Below, in pieces: positions 1-6,670 of a stretch of 64,000 nt of DNA; the first letter of the stretch is position 1, and each line of letters starts with the position of its first letter. The DNA is from a virus (taxonomy: Duplodnaviria; Heunggongvirae; Uroviricota; Caudoviricetes). A model generated the notes under the pieces. It did not search any database, was not told the DNA's origin, and saw only the letters and a program-made list of their open reading frames with translations. The position numbers and the translations under genes are program-made. The stretch lies in the IMG/VR virus record IMGVR_UViG_2880372215_000004; one strand, given 5' to 3'.

Positions 1-1236
1 CTATGATAACCGCGCATTCAACATGGCTACCTGTTCGTCGTTCATGTCATCAATCCACATACCGTAAATTTCATACACCATCTGCGCAGTTTCATGCCCC
101 ATTTGGCTGGCTATAAATGCCGGGTTCGCTCCTGCCGTCAACAGCCAGCAGGCAAAAGTATGCCGCGTATGGTACGGATTACGGCGGCGAATACCAGCAC
201 GTTTTACTGCTGCATTCCACCTTGCCCCCAAACTGCTTACCGAGTAATAAGGTTTTTGTTTTCCGTTACACACCCTGGGCATGAAAACAAAATGCAGTTT
301 TTGCTTTTCGGTTCTGCCGTACTCCCGATGATAAAAGGTGATTTCGCTTTTGCGATGATGCCCGGTCAGTTTGTATTGCTCCTTCAGTGCTTCAAGAGCA
401 GGCTGCAGTAGTGTTACCGTCCGGATCCCCGCATTTGTTTTTGGGGGACCGAACATATCCAGTATCGTCAGGTTTCTTCTGACATTCACAACTCCCTTCT
501 CGAAATCCACATCCTCCCACGCCAGAGCAGCCAGTTCCCCGTGACGAAGCCCGGAGTATACGGCAAATTTCCACAAGTTCTGGCTCTGTCCTTTTTCACT
601 TTCCATTAATGCATTGAATTCTGTTTTAGATAACGGGTCAGGCTTTATTCTGTTTCTCTGTAATTTCTTTACTCCTTCAAATGGTTTGGTTGATATAAAT
701 CCCGACTGATACGCAAAACGTAACAACGAACAGAGCAGGGCGATATAGTTATCAACTGTGCGCACGGTTCTTCCTTTTTTGTTGGATCTTGGATTATCCA
801 GGTAAAGCGTTTCTCCATGCAGCAGTTCATTCCGGTAGTTTAAGATATCGCTATAACGAATATGCGATATCGGAGTACTCTCACAAATTATTATCCTGAG
901 TGTTTTTAATTGTGATTTCGTTTTCTTCATTGTGTTTGTTGTTAACTCTGTTTCTTTAATTTTTGTCCAGATATCACAAAGCTCCCCGAACGTTTTTATG
1001 ACCCTCGTTGTCACCATTTTTGCCCCAGTGCTGGACTGGGGAAAACGTCTTAAATACTCAAACTCACCGGAATTGATTTCATGAACTATCAACGCTCTTA
1101 AATTCCCGGCTTTTTTAATGTTACTGTTAGTAACCTCCCAGCCTTTCAATGTTTCCCGACATCGTTTTCCTCGAAACATGAACCAGATGCGAATGTATTT
1201 ACCTCGAATCTCGACACCTGTTGGTAATTTAGACAT
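1..1236 (-). CDS. intR: Rac-type prophage tyrosine integrase, 411 aa, complete
   Basis: ORF track; catalytic C-terminus (RHTFACWLL, GHETAQM, YEIY); gene order int-xis-ydaC-ralR-recT-recE. Confidence 0.9.
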   Translation of the reverse strand: MSKLPTGVEIRGKYIRIWFMFRGKRCRETLKGWEVTNSNIKKAGNLRALIVHEINSGEFEYLRRFPQSSTGAKMVTTRVIKTFGELCDIWTKIKETELTTNTMKKTKSQLKTLRIIICESTPISHIRYSDILNYRNELLHGETLYLDNPRSNKKGRTVRTVDNYIALLCSLLRFAYQSGFISTKPFEGVKKLQRNRIKPDPLSKTEFNALMESEKGQSQNLWKFAVYSGLRHGELAALAWEDVDFEKGVVNVRRNLTILDMFGPPKTNAGIRTVTLLQPALEALKEQYKLTGHHRKSEITFYHREYGRTEKQKLHFVFMPRVCNGKQKPYYSVSSLGARWNAAVKRAGIRRRNPYHTRHTFACWLLTAGANPAFIASQMGHETAQMVYEIYGMWIDDMNDEQVAMLNARLS

Positions 1237-1237
1237 A

Positions 1238-1453
1238 TCATGAGTCTTTGATAAACTGATTTATCTTTGGATAGTTATACCAGATAATCCCTCGCTTACT
1301 GTCTGGCTTCCCTAAAGGAGATACTCGTTTGAAGTGGAAGCCTTCCACCCAACAGTTCTGGCGGTATGCTTCAATTTGTCTGGCCCCCAGACCAGTGCGA
1401 AGCATCAGGCCGTATTCAACCATCCACTCTTCATTAAAGATTACTTGTGCCAT
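1238..1453 (-). CDS. xisR: excisionase-like protein, 71 aa from MAQVIF (ORF track start 1477 is an alternative)
   Basis: ORF 1238..1477; GAGGTG Shine-Dalgarno 6 nt before internal ATG at 1453; directly upstream of int. Confidence 0.75.
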
Positions 1454-1552
1454 CGCATCACCTCTGGCAGGCGCCAATGTTAGACTTAAATTGACGCCCG
1501 ATGTTGATTATTAATAATCAGCTATGAAGTTTTAATTTGAATACAATGCAAT

Positions 1553-1741
1553 TCACGAGGACTGAAGTTTCTCGCAATTAAAATTTATCAGTTTTACTTT
1601 CTGCTCTCTGGAAACGCCTGCTTCTTTTTTACCTGAGAGCATTTTTTCGCATTCTGATTTCGTTAGTTTAGATTTTGAATATCTTGTCCAGTTAGTAGGA
1701 GTGCCACCTTCCTTTTCAATAGTGGCGGTAATTTTATACAT
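1553..1741 (-). CDS. ydaC: Rac prophage YdaC-like small protein; start at MYKITAT (alternatives 1753, 1813)
   Basis: ORF 1553..1813; GGAGGTG precedes the ATG at 1741. Confidence 0.65.
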   Translation of the reverse strand: MYKITATIEKEGGTPTNWTRYSKSKLTKSECEKMLSGKKEAGVSREQKVKLINFNCEKLQSS

Positions 1742-1778
1742 GAACACCTCCATTATTATTTCCAGTGGTTCGTTTATT

Positions 1779-1928
1779 TCATCGTTCGAGTGCTTCTTTT
1801 TCACTTCCACCATAACCGGTTCGGGATTCGCATCCGTTACACTTCGCTCGGTAATATCCTGAAATGGCTTTCACCGTTACTGATGGACAACCACAAAATG
1901 GACATGGTTTAACATTGTCATATCTCAT
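1779..1928 (-). CDS. ralR: restriction-alleviation protein RalR/Lar, truncated: 49 aa then TGA; read-through would give the 64-aa form ending NNNGGVHV at 1734
   Basis: Read from minus strand (MRYDNVKPCPFCGCPSVTVKAISGYYRAKCNGCESRTGYGGSEKEALER-stop); below ORF-track size cutoff. Confidence 0.6.
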   Translation of the reverse strand: MRYDNVKPCPFCGCPSVTVKAISGYYRAKCNGCESRTGYGGSEKEALER

Positions 1929-1983
1929 AATTTTTCTCATAAAAATATTTCAAGTTGGCGGTGCATTACACCGCCAGGCTGAA

Positions 1984-2793
1984 TTATTCCTCTGAATTAT
2001 CGATTACACTGTATTCCCCGGTTAATACAGAGGAATCTGCAGGATCGATTGTCAGTGGTTCCTTTTCATCCATTGATACTGCACGCTGGATCTCAATTGA
2101 TACGGGCAGATATTTGAACAGGCGACGAATAGCCGTTTTCTTTGCCATTTCTTCCCAGTGAGTTACCCACGGCCCGTTATTACCAGCTTTACTCTGGCTG
2201 CGCACCAGCTCAATCTGTTTGCGCGTCATAACTTCAAACTGAGTACCTCCGTCTTTCAGTCTTGCGACAGCATAGACGTGGGTAACAGGGGCATCTTCGT
2301 TTTCTCCTGGGCGGTGTATTAACTTTTCATCAAGGCCAAATTCGAAATTAAACTCGTCACCTTCACGGACAACACGGGCTGACAAGCTGGCGATTTGACC
2401 TGAACGGCGAGCCAGATCAATCATGCCTCGATAGCCAATGATTAGCTGAACGTTTTTTTTACCGCTCTTTTCGTTTTTATTACCAAAAGGCAGTAAATAT
2501 GCATGACCGAGGGCGCTACCGGGCTCAAGTCCGAGCTGTGAACACTGTACGATTGCACTGACAAAACTCATAGTGTCACAGTTTCCTAACGCCGGAACTT
2601 TACGAATTTCTGTGGTGGCGATACGGATCATACGTTCAGCCGTCATATGGCGTGGAAGAGCTGCTGCCAGTTGCTCTTTCATTGATGGCTGGTTAATAAA
2701 ACTAATCACGTCGTTATTTTTAATTGCTGCTGGTGCACGGTTTCCCTGAGTTTTTTGCAGATCGGCTTTTGCGATTGGTGGTTGCTTAGTCAT
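1984..2793 (-). CDS. recT: RecT single-strand annealing recombinase, 269 aa from MTKQPP
   Basis: ORF 1984..2850; sequence recognised as Rac RecT; internal start 8 nt inside recE 3' end. Confidence 0.95.
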
Positions 2794-5386
2794 TTGCATA
2801 TTCCTTAGCCCAGCGGGGCAGTGATAACGTCTTAATAGCTGGCCATTCATCGGTATTGAGGCAGTCAGCCAGGGTTCGCAGATTGCGGTGATATTCCAGC
2901 TGACCTGCCAGTTTTGCTTCTTCGCCCATCATGAAAATTTCAACCGGATAACGTCCGCATTCAATAGTTGTGCTGGCAACCAGAAAAACGAAAGTTGGCT
3001 GCACTCCAAACTGTGCTTCATAACCGTCACTGTAGAATGCATCCTGAACGTGATAGCGGTAGTCGTAATAAGCGGTTTTGAATCGTTGAATATCCGCCGT
3101 AGTTTTCACGTCCATGATCCAGTGAAATTCAGGGATAATTTTGTCCGGACGGCACCGACACAAAATTGCTGTTTCAGGATCTTCCCAGTAAATTGATGAT
3201 TCAGCGTGTCCGGCGCTTTCAACAAGCCATTGCCCCAGCGGCAAAGCCATAACGCTCTGATACATGAGTTCAATTTTCCGGCCTTCTTCGGCAGTGATAA
3301 CCGTTTTTCCTGTGCTTGCGCATTCCCTCAGAAACGCTTTCTCTTCTTCTTTTCCGGAGTTTGTCCGGCGGTTAAATTCAGGTGCTACGATAAAGCGGTT
3401 ACTGAATTCTTCCGGCTCAAGTACCCGGCAGTGGAAAGCGGTTCCTAAATCGAGCGTTTTTGTCTTTGTGGTGTCCACGGGGGCATTTTTACGCCACAAA
3501 TACAGTGCCGGAGTATCAGCAATGTCATCGAGCTGAGACTTACTGACACCGGGACCCGCGTGGTAATTCTCATTCGAAATTCCGTAATAAATACCTGGCT
3601 CTATGTCTTCTACGATTACGGGATCTGCGACTTCGCCAGTTTCATCACTGCAATCGCGATGCGGATCGCTGCCAGCATTCTCATTGTGCGGATGTTCAGC
3701 GCCTTCCATTTCCTCCGGATCATTTTCCTTAGCTTCAACCTGACTCTCTTCATCGAATGTTTCCTGGTATGTTGCGTCGCCCATCACCGCACCACAGTCA
3801 GGGCAGTTATCCCCGCCAGTCTGGCCGCAGGCATTGCAGGCTATTTCCGGTTCCTGTTGCACTACTGGCTCAGGTTGATTCATATCCGGGCTGGTTTTTT
3901 CCGTTTCTGGCTGGTTCTGGTACACACAATCGCGAGTCTGGATCCCCTTTACCCATTTCGGATCGTTCGGGTCGCTAATTCCGTCAACAAATTCACCACG
4001 TGATGCAGCAAGCAATTTATCGGCATCGACAGGATTTTTTGATGGAATGTTTTTCCGGGCTTCATGGAGTTCTGCCCGCAGTTCCTGATATTTCGCATCA
4101 ACAGAATTTACCTGTGACTGAGCATCCAGCGGCTGCGTGTCCTGATGATGTTCAGTTGCGTCCGGTTCCATTGTTTCAGCCTCTCCCTGTTCAACTGCCG
4201 TTGTTCCAGATGGTTGCGGTTTTTCTTCATCATCCTGTTTTCCTTCTTCTGTTACTCGCTGCGGCATCGGGGCAGAGGAGCGACCGCAGGCAATATCCAC
4301 GATTTCCGGATCAGGGTTGGCATGATCGGTTTCAGTCAGTACTTTGTTCAGATATTCAGTGACGTGCGCGGGGATGACCTCGATCCCAATTGGTGCTTCT
4401 TTTACGGACGCAACCACGATGGCGCGGGAATAATCCAGCCCGCCAGGCATGGTGATGAATTTGTCGCGGAAAACAGAAAAGGGCGGTTTATTTTCAGCGA
4501 TAATTTCCTCAATGCGTTTAGCGTGTGCCGGATGAAGGTTATAGATGTCCAGATCCATTGAACGGGCCAGTACGCCAGTGGCTACGTCGCGCGCCAGTGA
4601 CGTCAGATCGTGTACGAAACCTTCGCCGCGATCGGTGAGGTTTCCGCCGCCAGCATTAGCACCGGAAGCCGTGCGAGTGATGTGTGAAACACGATTACCC
4701 TTCATCCACTCTTTTGTCAGCAGTCCTCGATCGGTGTAGTCAGCGTTCAGGTATGCTTCGAAAAAAGCAGTTATCAGTCCCAGGTTTGAATTACCAGGAT
4801 TAGGGAAAACTTTGTCAGTGTCACGAACCAGTTTGTGGAGTTCGCGAATTTCCAGCGGGTCGAGCAGGCTGGTTTTGTGGGAAACAGCCAGGGCAGTAAC
4901 AGCCGGTAGTTCTTCAGCCCGAGCAATGTGTAATGCCTGGAGTCCGTCGCGTGAAACGTGCGTTACCGGTTTTTCGCTGCCGTGTTGAGCAAGCCAACGA
5001 ATGGGCAGTTCCTGGCCAGAAATTGGGAGTAGCATATTCTCCTCAATCTCAGTCATGTCTTCGCCGTTGACGTTGGTATTGCCTTGATAGTGAGCGTTGT
5101 CTGGTGCTGCTCCCGGTTTTAGTTCCCATGTCATGGAGTCTTTGCTGAGTTGATAGCGTTCACTCCAGGTAAAATCGATCTCACCTTCAGCGGGCAGGTC
5201 ATTAACGACAGGAAAATTCGTGGCAACAGCTTTAAAATAGCTGCTCAGTTTTTTACCTGACTTAACGATCAGGTAGTCCAGAGTGGCACAGGTCGATTCA
5301 AAATCGTTGCTTGCCCACAGGACGACGTCAGGTTCACCGGATGATTTTTTCGCTTTCCGTAACAGGAAGAGTGGTTTTGTGCTCAT
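2786..5386 (-). CDS. recE: RecE exonuclease VIII, 866 aa
   Basis: ORF track; sequence recognised as Rac RecE; overlaps recT start. Confidence 0.95.
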
Positions 5387-6008: not shown

Positions 6009-6229
6009 CACCATGACTCCGCCTTTACAGGTAAACCATCACGACCGAGGAAGACTTTAATCATGCGGTCAGTAATGCATGTTTTTGTGGTCAGGTTACG
6101 AATATATAGTTTTCGCTTTTTAATATTGTTTGCCGAGGCAATATATGTCCGGCCTTCATGAAGAACATAATCGCCAGGAGTCACACACTGACGTGGTATT
6201 TCATCAGTTCCGAAGTGATGTGCAATCAT
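6008..6229 (-). CDS. kilR: KilR cell-division inhibitor, 73 aa from MIAHHF
   Basis: ORF 6008..6241; recognised sequence. Confidence 0.8.
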
Positions 6230-6670
6230 AATTATCTCCATTTTTACAAATGAACTTTGTTGATGCGGTGCCTGGTGCCTCCAGGTGACTGCAACCAGTT
6301 AACAATTACAGTCGGCTTTCCCACCCAAACCAATAAGGACTAACATGACTTTTAACTGTGCCACGTGCGCTTAGCCGCATTCACCGCATCACAAAATTCA
6401 CTTTAAAAAGGGCGGACATCAGCCGAACTTCAAGAAAAAAACTGATGCCGCCAGGACTACACACAGCAATGTCGTTATTTACAACCGGAGGCGCACTCCC
6501 ACCATTTAAATTTAACAGACAAGACCGACTCTTTATGGATATCGGAAATGCGCCTTCGTGTTGTGCCCGGTTTTATTTCACCACCTCCGGGCTTCGGTGG
6601 TCTCGGCTATACCCCTACAGCGAGAGCTTGTGTTAACATTTCAATACCCTTACAGTTGAGAGTTATTGAT

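What the first reader, a model, noticed from the sequence alone, without database searches (positions are those of the whole stretch)
1779..1940. ralR carries a premature TGA; read-through would restore the 64-aa protein
Minus-strand frame reads MRYDNVKPCPFCGCPSVTVKAISGYYRAKCNGCESRTGYGGSEKEALER then TGA (1781-1779); continuing gives WNKRTTGNNNGGVHV and a stop at 1734, matching the 64-aa RalR as I recall it (TGG at this codon). RalR is reported as the toxin of a type I toxin-antitoxin pair with the RalA sRNA, so a truncation could inactivate it.
Basis: partly seen in the sequence, partly recalled or inferred. Interest (0 to 1): 0.4.

Follow-up and report, generated by a model that had tools for sequence, protein, structure and literature searches.

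The report
Natural stop-codon allele of ralR toxin
The small prophage toxin gene ralR really is cut short by a stop codon here, but this is the normal, widespread allele of E. coli O157:H7 and other EHEC lineages and most likely just a dead or weakened toxin gene, so it is ordinary.

Summary
On the minus strand, ralR (start 1928) reads 49 codons and then TGA at 1781-1779. K-12 has TGG (Trp50) there, and the 14 codons up to TAA (1736-1734) match K-12 exactly.

It is not a sequencing error or a private mutation. The window is the Rac-like prophage Sp10/CP-933R of E. coli O157:H7. The exact TGA-bearing 81-mer occurs in 307 of 5,426 complete E. coli genomes (O157, O26, O111, O103 and others). RefSeq annotates the product as a 49-aa RalR (WP_001443846.1), not as a pseudogene.

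TGA is the derived state. Nine other ralR alleles keep TGG, K-12 and eight more divergent ones. In 57 single-domain Lar-family homologues, Trp50 and Asn51 are as invariant as the four zinc-ribbon cysteines. The stop removes W50, N51 and R53 and the end of the predicted C-terminal helix (residues 43-53).

The RalA antitoxin sRNA (1557-1735, +) and its 16-nt pairing site in ralR (1806-1791) are unchanged. No SECIS-like structure follows the TGA.

Best reading: a lineage-fixed loss- or reduction-of-function allele of a prophage toxin. Any residual full-length product would come only from ordinary tRNA-Trp misreading of UGA. Toxicity of the short form was not tested. Low interest.

The parts
1779..1928 (-). 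Truncated ralR coding sequence: 49 codons plus TGA. An in-frame ATG at 1940 would add MRKI, giving 53 aa.
   Evidence: Searches give the translation. RefSeq annotates exactly 1779..1928 as ralR, WP_001443846.1, in the identical O157:H7 86-24 sequence. The product scores above the curated cut-offs of PF14354, TIGR03655 and NF007260.
1779..1781 (-). Premature opal codon TGA in place of Trp50 (TGG in K-12). The derived base is A at 1779 on the minus strand.
   Evidence: Alignment with K-12. Eight divergent ralR alleles all have TGG. W50 is invariant in 57 Lar-family proteins.
1784..1784 (-). Synonymous Arg49 change (AGA in K-12, CGA here) that travels with the TGA.
   Evidence: Searches give exact 81-mer counts: CGA-TGA 307 genomes, AGA-TGG 1109, CGA-TGG 0, AGA-TGA 0. 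CGA does occur with TGG in more divergent alleles (O145 RM9872, L73).
1734..1778 (-). The cut-off 3' part of ralR: 14 codons (NKRTTGNNNGGVHV) plus TAA, still open and identical to K-12. It overlaps the rcbA start by 8 nt.
1791..1806 (-). The 16-nt site in ralR mRNA (AAGTGAAAAAGAAGCA, codons Gly42-Ala47) that pairs with RalA. It is unchanged and lies 10 nt upstream of the TGA.
   Evidence: 14 of 16 bases, 11 of them contiguous, are complementary to RalA positions 63-78. This agrees with Guo et al. 2014. The site is identical to K-12.
1557..1735 (+). RalA antitoxin sRNA gene, full length, antisense to rcbA.
   Evidence: Rfam RF02694: 225.1 bits against a gathering score of 170, model positions 1-179 of 179. 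No difference from K-12 within it.
1553..1741 (-). rcbA/ydaC homologue (DUF1187, 62 aa). Its ATG overlaps the original ralR stop, and it has its own GGAGG upstream.
   Evidence: PF06688, 132 bits. Annotated as WP_001302840.1. K-12 has a 69-aa stop-loss form.

Best explanation
This is a genuine, inherited nonsense allele (Trp50 to opal) of ralR, the toxin gene of the RalR/RalA type I toxin-antitoxin pair. It sits in the Rac-like prophage Sp10/CP-933R of E. coli O157:H7.

The mutation most likely arose once, on a K-12-like ralR background, and was then carried by prophage recombination into several lineages (O157:H7, O26, O111, O103 and others).

Translation stops after Arg49. The product keeps the four-cysteine zinc ribbon but loses the end of the C-terminal helix, including the family-invariant Trp-Asn-x-Arg motif. 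It is therefore most probably non-toxic or strongly attenuated (inferred, not shown).

The antitoxin sRNA RalA, its pairing site and the downstream rcbA gene are untouched, so the locus is now an antitoxin left with a crippled toxin. That is ordinary gene decay, or detoxification, in a largely silent prophage arm.

Any full-length RalR would arise only from the usual low-level misreading of UGA by tRNA-Trp, which would happen to restore the wild-type residue. Nothing in the sequence points to programmed recoding.
For: Shown:
- TGA in the window against TGG in K-12.
- The first 24 kb of the window are 100.0% identical to O157:H7 strains 86-24, ATCC 43888 and others.
- RefSeq annotates a 49-aa ralR at the same coordinates.
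- The exact TGA 81-mer is in 307 of 5,426 complete genomes and the K-12 81-mer in 1,109. Neither single-change intermediate is found in any genome.
- The exact 49-aa protein is on at least 1,000 contigs and in three deposited Escherichia phage records.
- Eight divergent alleles all have TGG, and residues 50-54 (WNKRT) are unchanged in them, while 56 and 58 vary.
- In 57 single-domain Lar homologues (33-77% identity), the invariant columns are C9, P10, F11, C12, C30, C33, W50 and N51; R53 is at least 90% conserved.
- The Pfam Lar score drops from 53.5 to 39 bits, and the profile match ends at position 52 of 58.
- The AlphaFold2 model has strands 17-22 and 25-30 and a helix 43-53, with a low-confidence tail beyond 54.
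- RalA is full length and identical to K-12, and its pairing site is intact.
- E2865 (bovine isolate; serotype not given in the record) is identical to the window across 1488-2384 but K-12-like in intR/xisR. This indicates a shared haplotype block moved by recombination.

From the literature: changing residues 44-47 abolishes RalR toxicity (PMC4041452).
Against: - No experiment tests the 49-aa form, so it could retain partial activity. The zinc ribbon and most of the helix remain, and the product still passes all three curated HMM cut-offs.
- A nonsense allele present in 16% of ralR-carrying complete genomes (307 of 1,921), across two phylogroups, could reflect positive selection rather than neutral decay.
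- Single origin is inferred from one shared haplotype block in one comparison, not from a phylogeny.
- Read-through levels in O157:H7 were not measured.
Confidence: 0.82

Rival explanations
1. Sequencing or assembly error: the true base is G and ralR is intact.
For: It is a single-base difference from the K-12 reference. No reads are available here.
Against: The identical 461-bp segment and the TGA 81-mer occur in hundreds of independently sequenced complete genomes, and in three deposited Escherichia phage records. Twelve listed O157:H7 genomes are 100.0% identical over 24 kb. The TGA always travels with a second, synonymous change five bases upstream, which a random error would not do.
Confidence: 0.01
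2. Programmed recoding: the UGA is decoded on purpose, either as selenocysteine or by efficient regulated read-through, so that a controlled amount of 64-aa RalR is made.
For: - The downstream 14 codons are still open and identical to K-12.
- The near-cognate tRNA for UGA is tRNA-Trp, which would restore the ancestral residue (established knowledge of UGA misreading in E. coli).
- The allele is common.
Against: - No stable structure follows the UGA. Folding 1790-1720 gives -6.2 kcal/mol and a z-score of +0.73, with no hairpin near the stop, so there is no SECIS-like element.
- The ancestral residue is Trp, not Cys.
- The in-frame TGA is not conserved in any diverged homologue, as a recoding signal would be.
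- Forty-five open bases at about 98-99% identity to K-12 are expected without any selection.
- Outside K-12, RF2 carries Ala246 and terminates efficiently at UGA (established knowledge; prfB is not in the window and was not checked).
Confidence: 0.04
3. The 49-aa product is a functional, selected short form. It might be a non-toxic protein that keeps restriction alleviation or another Lar activity, or the allele might keep the ralR mRNA as a target or sponge for RalA while removing the DNase activity. Either way it would be favoured in EHEC lineages that carry many lambdoid prophages.
For: - The allele is frequent and shared across phylogroups by recombination.
- The zinc ribbon, start codon and RalA site have not decayed further.
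- The product passes the family cut-offs.
Against: - The missing W-N-x-R motif is as conserved as the zinc ligands across the whole family, and no natural family member in the alignment ends before it.
- The absence of further decay is uninformative given the very low divergence: three substitutions in 376 nt against K-12.
- Hitch-hiking with a successful prophage arm explains the frequency equally well.
Confidence: 0.1

Closest known systems
RalR (Lar) of the E. coli K-12 Rac prophage, b1348, 64 aa; toxin of the RalR/RalA type I TA pair (Guo et al. 2014, PMC4041452)
   Same: Same gene at the same place (recT - ralR - rcbA/RalA - xisR - intR at the ttcA end of the prophage). Of the 195 ralR nucleotides, 193 are identical. 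The RalA gene and the 16-nt pairing site are identical.
   Different: Codon 50 is TGA instead of TGG, so the annotated product is 49 aa and lacks WNKRTTGNNNGGVHV. Arg49 is CGA instead of AGA. The neighbouring rcbA is 62 aa instead of 69 aa.
Lar family restriction alleviation proteins (Pfam PF14354, TIGR03655)
   Same: CPFCG...C-x2-C zinc ribbon followed by a helix. The product scores above both curated cut-offs.
   Different: It lacks the invariant W-N-x-R end of the domain (profile positions 53-58), which all 57 aligned homologues have.
Inactivated chromosomal type I toxins, such as the hok-like loci of E. coli K-12, reported as mostly inactive (cited in PMC4041452)
   Same: A type I toxin gene disabled by mutation while the locus, including its antisense RNA, persists in the chromosome.
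   Different: Here the lesion is a single nonsense codon near the 3' end rather than an IS insertion or rearrangement, and it is fixed in whole pathogenic lineages.

Membership tests
RalR / Lar family (PF14354, TIGR03655, NF007260) | Score above the curated HMM cut-offs | tested here: met
   The 49-aa product scores PF14354 39.0 bits (cut-off 28.6), TIGR03655 40.3 (39.6, only just) and NF007260 126.9 (113).
RalR / Lar family (PF14354, TIGR03655, NF007260) | Four-cysteine zinc ribbon (C9, C12, C30, C33, with the P10-F11 motif) | tested here: met
   All are present in the window protein and invariant in 57 homologues.
RalR / Lar family (PF14354, TIGR03655, NF007260) | Invariant Trp-Asn-x-Arg motif closing the C-terminal helix | tested here: not met
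   The stop replaces W50. N51 and R53 are encoded only downstream of the TGA. The Pfam match ends at profile position 52 of 58.
RalR / Lar family (PF14354, TIGR03655, NF007260) | Position in a Rac-type prophage arm, between recT and rcbA-xisR-intR | tested here: met
   Annotation of the identical O157:H7 86-24 sequence and of K-12.
RalR/RalA type I toxin-antitoxin system | RalA sRNA gene present and complete | tested here: met
   RF02694, 225.1 bits, model positions 1-179 of 179, at 1557-1735 on the plus strand. Identical to K-12.
RalR/RalA type I toxin-antitoxin system | 16-nt complementarity between RalA and the ralR coding region | tested here: met
   ralR 1806-1791 against RalA positions 63-78: 14 of 16 bases complementary, 11 of them contiguous, as described in PMC4041452.
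RalR/RalA type I toxin-antitoxin system | Intact toxin reading frame (64 aa) | tested here: not met
   TGA at codon 50.
RalR/RalA type I toxin-antitoxin system | Toxin is toxic or DNase-active and is neutralised by RalA | not testable with these tools
   This needs expression of the 49-aa and 64-aa alleles in a rac-deleted host.
Programmed UGA recoding (selenocysteine or programmed read-through) | Recoding signal (SECIS-type hairpin) immediately 3' of the UGA | tested here: not met
   No hairpin adjoins the stop; MFE -6.2 kcal/mol, z-score +0.73 against shuffles.
Programmed UGA recoding (selenocysteine or programmed read-through) | In-frame UGA conserved among diverged homologues | tested here: not met
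   All eight divergent E. coli alleles and all 57 family members have Trp.

The most novel reading that the evidence does not exclude
The opal allele is not decay but a selected 'dimmer switch'. In EHEC lineages the toxin would be made only through tRNA-Trp read-through of CGA-UGA-A, which restores the exact wild-type protein. Alternatively, the 49-aa zinc-ribbon fragment has a function of its own. Either way RalR dosage would be tuned in strains crowded with lambdoid prophages, which would explain why the allele spread by recombination across phylogroups.
Probability: 0.05. Interest if true: 0.45.

Novelty: already known. Interest (0 to 1): 0.12.

Why it matters
The importance is limited. The finding shows that the RalR/RalA system characterised in K-12 cannot be assumed to be a working toxin-antitoxin pair in O157:H7 and the other lineages that carry this allele. 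It also shows that RefSeq names a 49-aa product 'toxin RalR' although it lacks the family's most conserved motif. That matters for toxin-antitoxin inventories of pathogenic E. coli and for anyone extrapolating Rac phenotypes (fosfomycin tolerance, DNA damage) from K-12 to EHEC. It opens no new biology unless the short form or read-through proves to be functional.

Tried and rejected
- Sequencing error: rejected on population evidence.
- Intermediate haplotypes (CGA-TGG and AGA-TGA in the K-12-like 81-mer): searched, and none found in 5,426 genomes.
- Selenocysteine or structured read-through signal: folding the 71 nt around and after the stop gave nothing.
- Solved structures: a sequence search of the PDB gave only spurious hits to the chitin-binding protein CbpD, E = 0.002-0.02. 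A Foldseek search of the AlphaFold2 model gave no hit better than E = 0.3, only generic zinc ribbons such as RNA polymerase C11/Rpb9 and Elf1/ELOF1. The fold therefore gives no independent clue to the DNase activity.
- Whole-length RNA duplex prediction between RalA and ralR mRNA gave an unrealistic end-to-end duplex and was discarded in favour of the direct 16-nt comparison.
- King & Murray 1995, the original lar paper, which might define the minimal functional region, is not held in the library. A 2025 review of restriction-modification does not mention Lar or RalR.
- Literature searches for ralR with O157 found no paper commenting on the truncation.
P0004, 92% identical, was used instead.
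- RF2 residue 246 of the host was not checked, because prfB is outside the window.

Full report
**Observation**

The minus strand of window 1940-1720 translates as MRKIMRYDNVKPCPFCGCPSVTVKAISGYYRAKCNGCESRTGYGGSEKEALER*NKRTTGNNNGGVHV*. The ORF list gives 1779..1940 (-), 53 aa. Counting from the ATG used in K-12 (1928), there are 49 codons and then TGA at 1781-1779. The frame continues for 14 codons to TAA at 1736-1734.

K-12 MG1655 ralR (b1348, 195 nt) translates to the 64-aa protein with Trp at position 50. A 501-base alignment of the two loci shows four differences only:
- ralR nt 145, A>C (AGA>CGA, synonymous).
- ralR nt 150, G>A (TGG>TGA).
- One base at the rcbA stop codon.
- One T fewer in the T-run upstream of ralR.

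**Where the window comes from and how the gene is annotated**

The first 24 kb of the window are 100.0% identical to at least twelve complete genomes. Most are labelled O157:H7 or O157, including 86-24 and ATCC 43888. The gene order is intR, xisR, DUF1187/rcbA, ralR, recT, recE, kilR, sieB and so on. This is the Rac-like prophage called Sp10/CP-933R, integrated at ttcA (described in PMC4632033).

In these RefSeq records ralR is annotated at exactly 1779..1928 as a 49-aa 'type I toxin-antitoxin system endodeoxyribonuclease toxin RalR', WP_001443846.1, without a pseudogene flag. The reason is visible in the HMM scores: the 49-aa product still passes the curated cut-off of the NCBIfam equivalog NF007260, 126.9 bits against 113.

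**How common the allele is**

I used exact 81-nt queries centred on the two linked SNPs against 5,426 complete E. coli genomes:

| Haplotype (codons 49-50) | Genomes with the exact 81-mer |
|---|---|
| CGA-TGA (window) | 307 |
| AGA-TGG (K-12) | 1,109 |
| CGA-TGG | 0 |
| AGA-TGA | 0 |

- Carriers of the TGA form include O157, O26, O111:H8 and O103 strains and several other human isolates.
- About 1,900 genomes carry ralR at all, so roughly one ralR-carrying genome in six has the stop.
- The exact 49-aa protein is recorded on at least 1,000 contigs in the large protein collection. The 53-aa reading of it is annotated in a deposited phage record.
- Three deposited Escherichia phage records carry the identical 461 bp.

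A sequencing error is excluded.

**Which state is ancestral**

Eight more divergent ralR alleles were fetched from the genome collection (3-25 nucleotide differences from K-12 over the ralR-rcbA stretch in seven; the eighth, E1, has an IS1 inserted in rcbA). All eight encode 64 aa with TGG at codon 50. Residues 50-54 (WNKRT) are unchanged in all of them, whereas positions 56 and 58 vary. CGA at codon 49 occurs together with TGG in two of these alleles (O145 RM9872 and L73). So CGA is an older polymorphism and TGA is the derived change.

Comparison of E2865 (bovine isolate; serotype not given in the record) with the window shows a mosaic:
- E2865 is identical to the window from 1488 to 2384, and has only two differences up to 3561.
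- It shares K-12's variants throughout intR/xisR (418-1487).

The TGA therefore sits on a haplotype block that has been moved between Rac-type prophages by recombination. A single origin is the simplest reading. This is an inference from one comparison.

**What the stop removes**

A full HMMER scan of 1.84 billion representative proteins, using a 64-aa RalR (P0004), found 1,690 relatives at E<=0.001. Nearly all alignments end at query residues 52-57. In an alignment of 57 single-domain homologues (33-77% identical to the query):
- The invariant columns are C9, P10, F11, C12, C30, C33, W50 and N51.
- G13, A46 and R53 are at least 90% conserved.
- Many homologues end within a few residues of the W-N-x-R motif, and none ends before it.

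The Pfam Lar domain (58 positions) matches the 64-aa protein over profile positions 2-58 with 53.5 bits. It matches the 49-aa product over positions 2-52 with 39.0 bits. An AlphaFold2 model built on that alignment (mean pLDDT 76.7) has a beta hairpin (17-22, 25-30) carrying the zinc ligands, a helix at 43-53, and a low-confidence tail after 54.

The stop thus deletes the last turn of the only helix, together with three of the eleven most conserved residues. The 10-residue tail that is also lost is probably dispensable.

Guo et al. 2014 reported that changing residues 44-47 (EKEA to AIAE) in this helix abolished toxicity. No truncation was tested there.

**The rest of the toxin-antitoxin locus**

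- Rfam finds RalA (RF02694) at 1557-1735 on the plus strand, with 225 bits over the whole 179-nt model. It is identical to K-12.
- The 16-nt site in ralR that pairs with RalA is AAGTGAAAAAGAAGCA at window 1806-1791, covering codons 42-47. It matches RalA positions 63-78 at 14 of 16 bases, with 11 contiguous, exactly as published. It lies 10 nt upstream of the TGA and is unchanged.
- rcbA (DUF1187) starts at 1741 with its own GGAGG a few bases upstream. Translation of ralR now ends 37 nt before that start instead of overlapping it. Any effect on coupling is speculative.

**Recoding**

The 71 nt around and after the UGA have no significant structure (-6.2 kcal/mol, z = +0.73). The ancestral residue is Trp, not Cys. 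The TGA is not conserved in any diverged homologue. Programmed selenocysteine insertion or read-through is therefore not supported.

The rate, however, is expected to be low. This rests on established knowledge of UGA termination and on the efficient Ala246 form of RF2 found outside K-12. The host prfB was not examined.

**Mechanism and verdict**

- Shown: the allele is real, derived, common and catalogued. It removes the family's invariant C-terminal motif, and the antitoxin and its target site are intact.
- Inferred: the 49-aa product is non-toxic or strongly attenuated. The locus is an orphaned antitoxin with a crippled toxin. The allele spread by hitch-hiking and recombination of the prophage arm.
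- Not excluded: a residual or new function of the short form (about 10%), or meaningful read-through dosing (about 4-5%).

I found no paper that comments on the truncation, but the sequence and its 49-aa annotation are in RefSeq for hundreds of genomes. This is an ordinary natural nonsense polymorphism in a known prophage gene.

Noticed in passing
window 1553-1741 (-), SNP at 1555: rcbA/ydaC (DUF1187) is 62 aa here and in all seven comparison alleles with an intact rcbA. K-12 alone among those compared has TGA>AGA at the stop, which extends the protein to 69 aa, so the K-12 reference form is the unusual one. The same base lies 2 nt upstream of the RalA transcription start.
   Followed up: partly
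proteins P0012, P0015, P0018; corresponds to window 1791-1806 and the matching repeat inside rcbA/RalA: Some E. coli genomes encode RalR(1-47)::DUF1187 fusion proteins whose junction lies exactly at the 16-nt direct repeat that serves as the RalA pairing site. These look like deletions by recombination between the two repeats. Another protein fuses the RecE N-terminus to the RalR C-terminus.
   Followed up: no
window 418-1487 versus 1488-3561: Mosaic ancestry of the prophage left arm. E2865 (bovine isolate) shares K-12's variants in intR/xisR but is nearly identical to the O157:H7 window from ralR through recE.
   Followed up: partly
window 6222-6465 (-): Sub-threshold Rfam matches next to kilR: DicF (6410-6465, 39.1 bits against a gathering score of 48, E = 7e-6) and STnc100 (6222-6408, 35.5 against 47). 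This is possibly a diverged DicF-type sRNA in this prophage.
   Followed up: no
window 1941-1945 (-): The T-run immediately upstream of the ralR start region has 5 T here and 6 T in K-12. It lies just after a GC-rich hairpin (GGCGGTG..CACCGCC) that follows the recT stop codon and could influence ralR expression.
   Followed up: no
window 13518-17017 and 19097-19349: The prophage carries a DNA cytosine methyltransferase, an O-methyltransferase and an ATP-binding protein as a cluster, and tRNA-Ile and tRNA-Arg genes upstream of the lysis region. These come from the RefSeq annotation of the identical 86-24 sequence.
   Followed up: no
RalR family as a whole (model ma9f731e6d613): The predicted fold of RalR is a plain zinc ribbon plus one helix. 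It has no significant structural neighbour in the PDB; the best hits, at E about 0.3, are RNA polymerase C11/Rpb9 and Elf1-type ribbons. Nothing in the fold resembles a known nuclease, which sits oddly with the reported non-specific DNase activity.
   Followed up: partly
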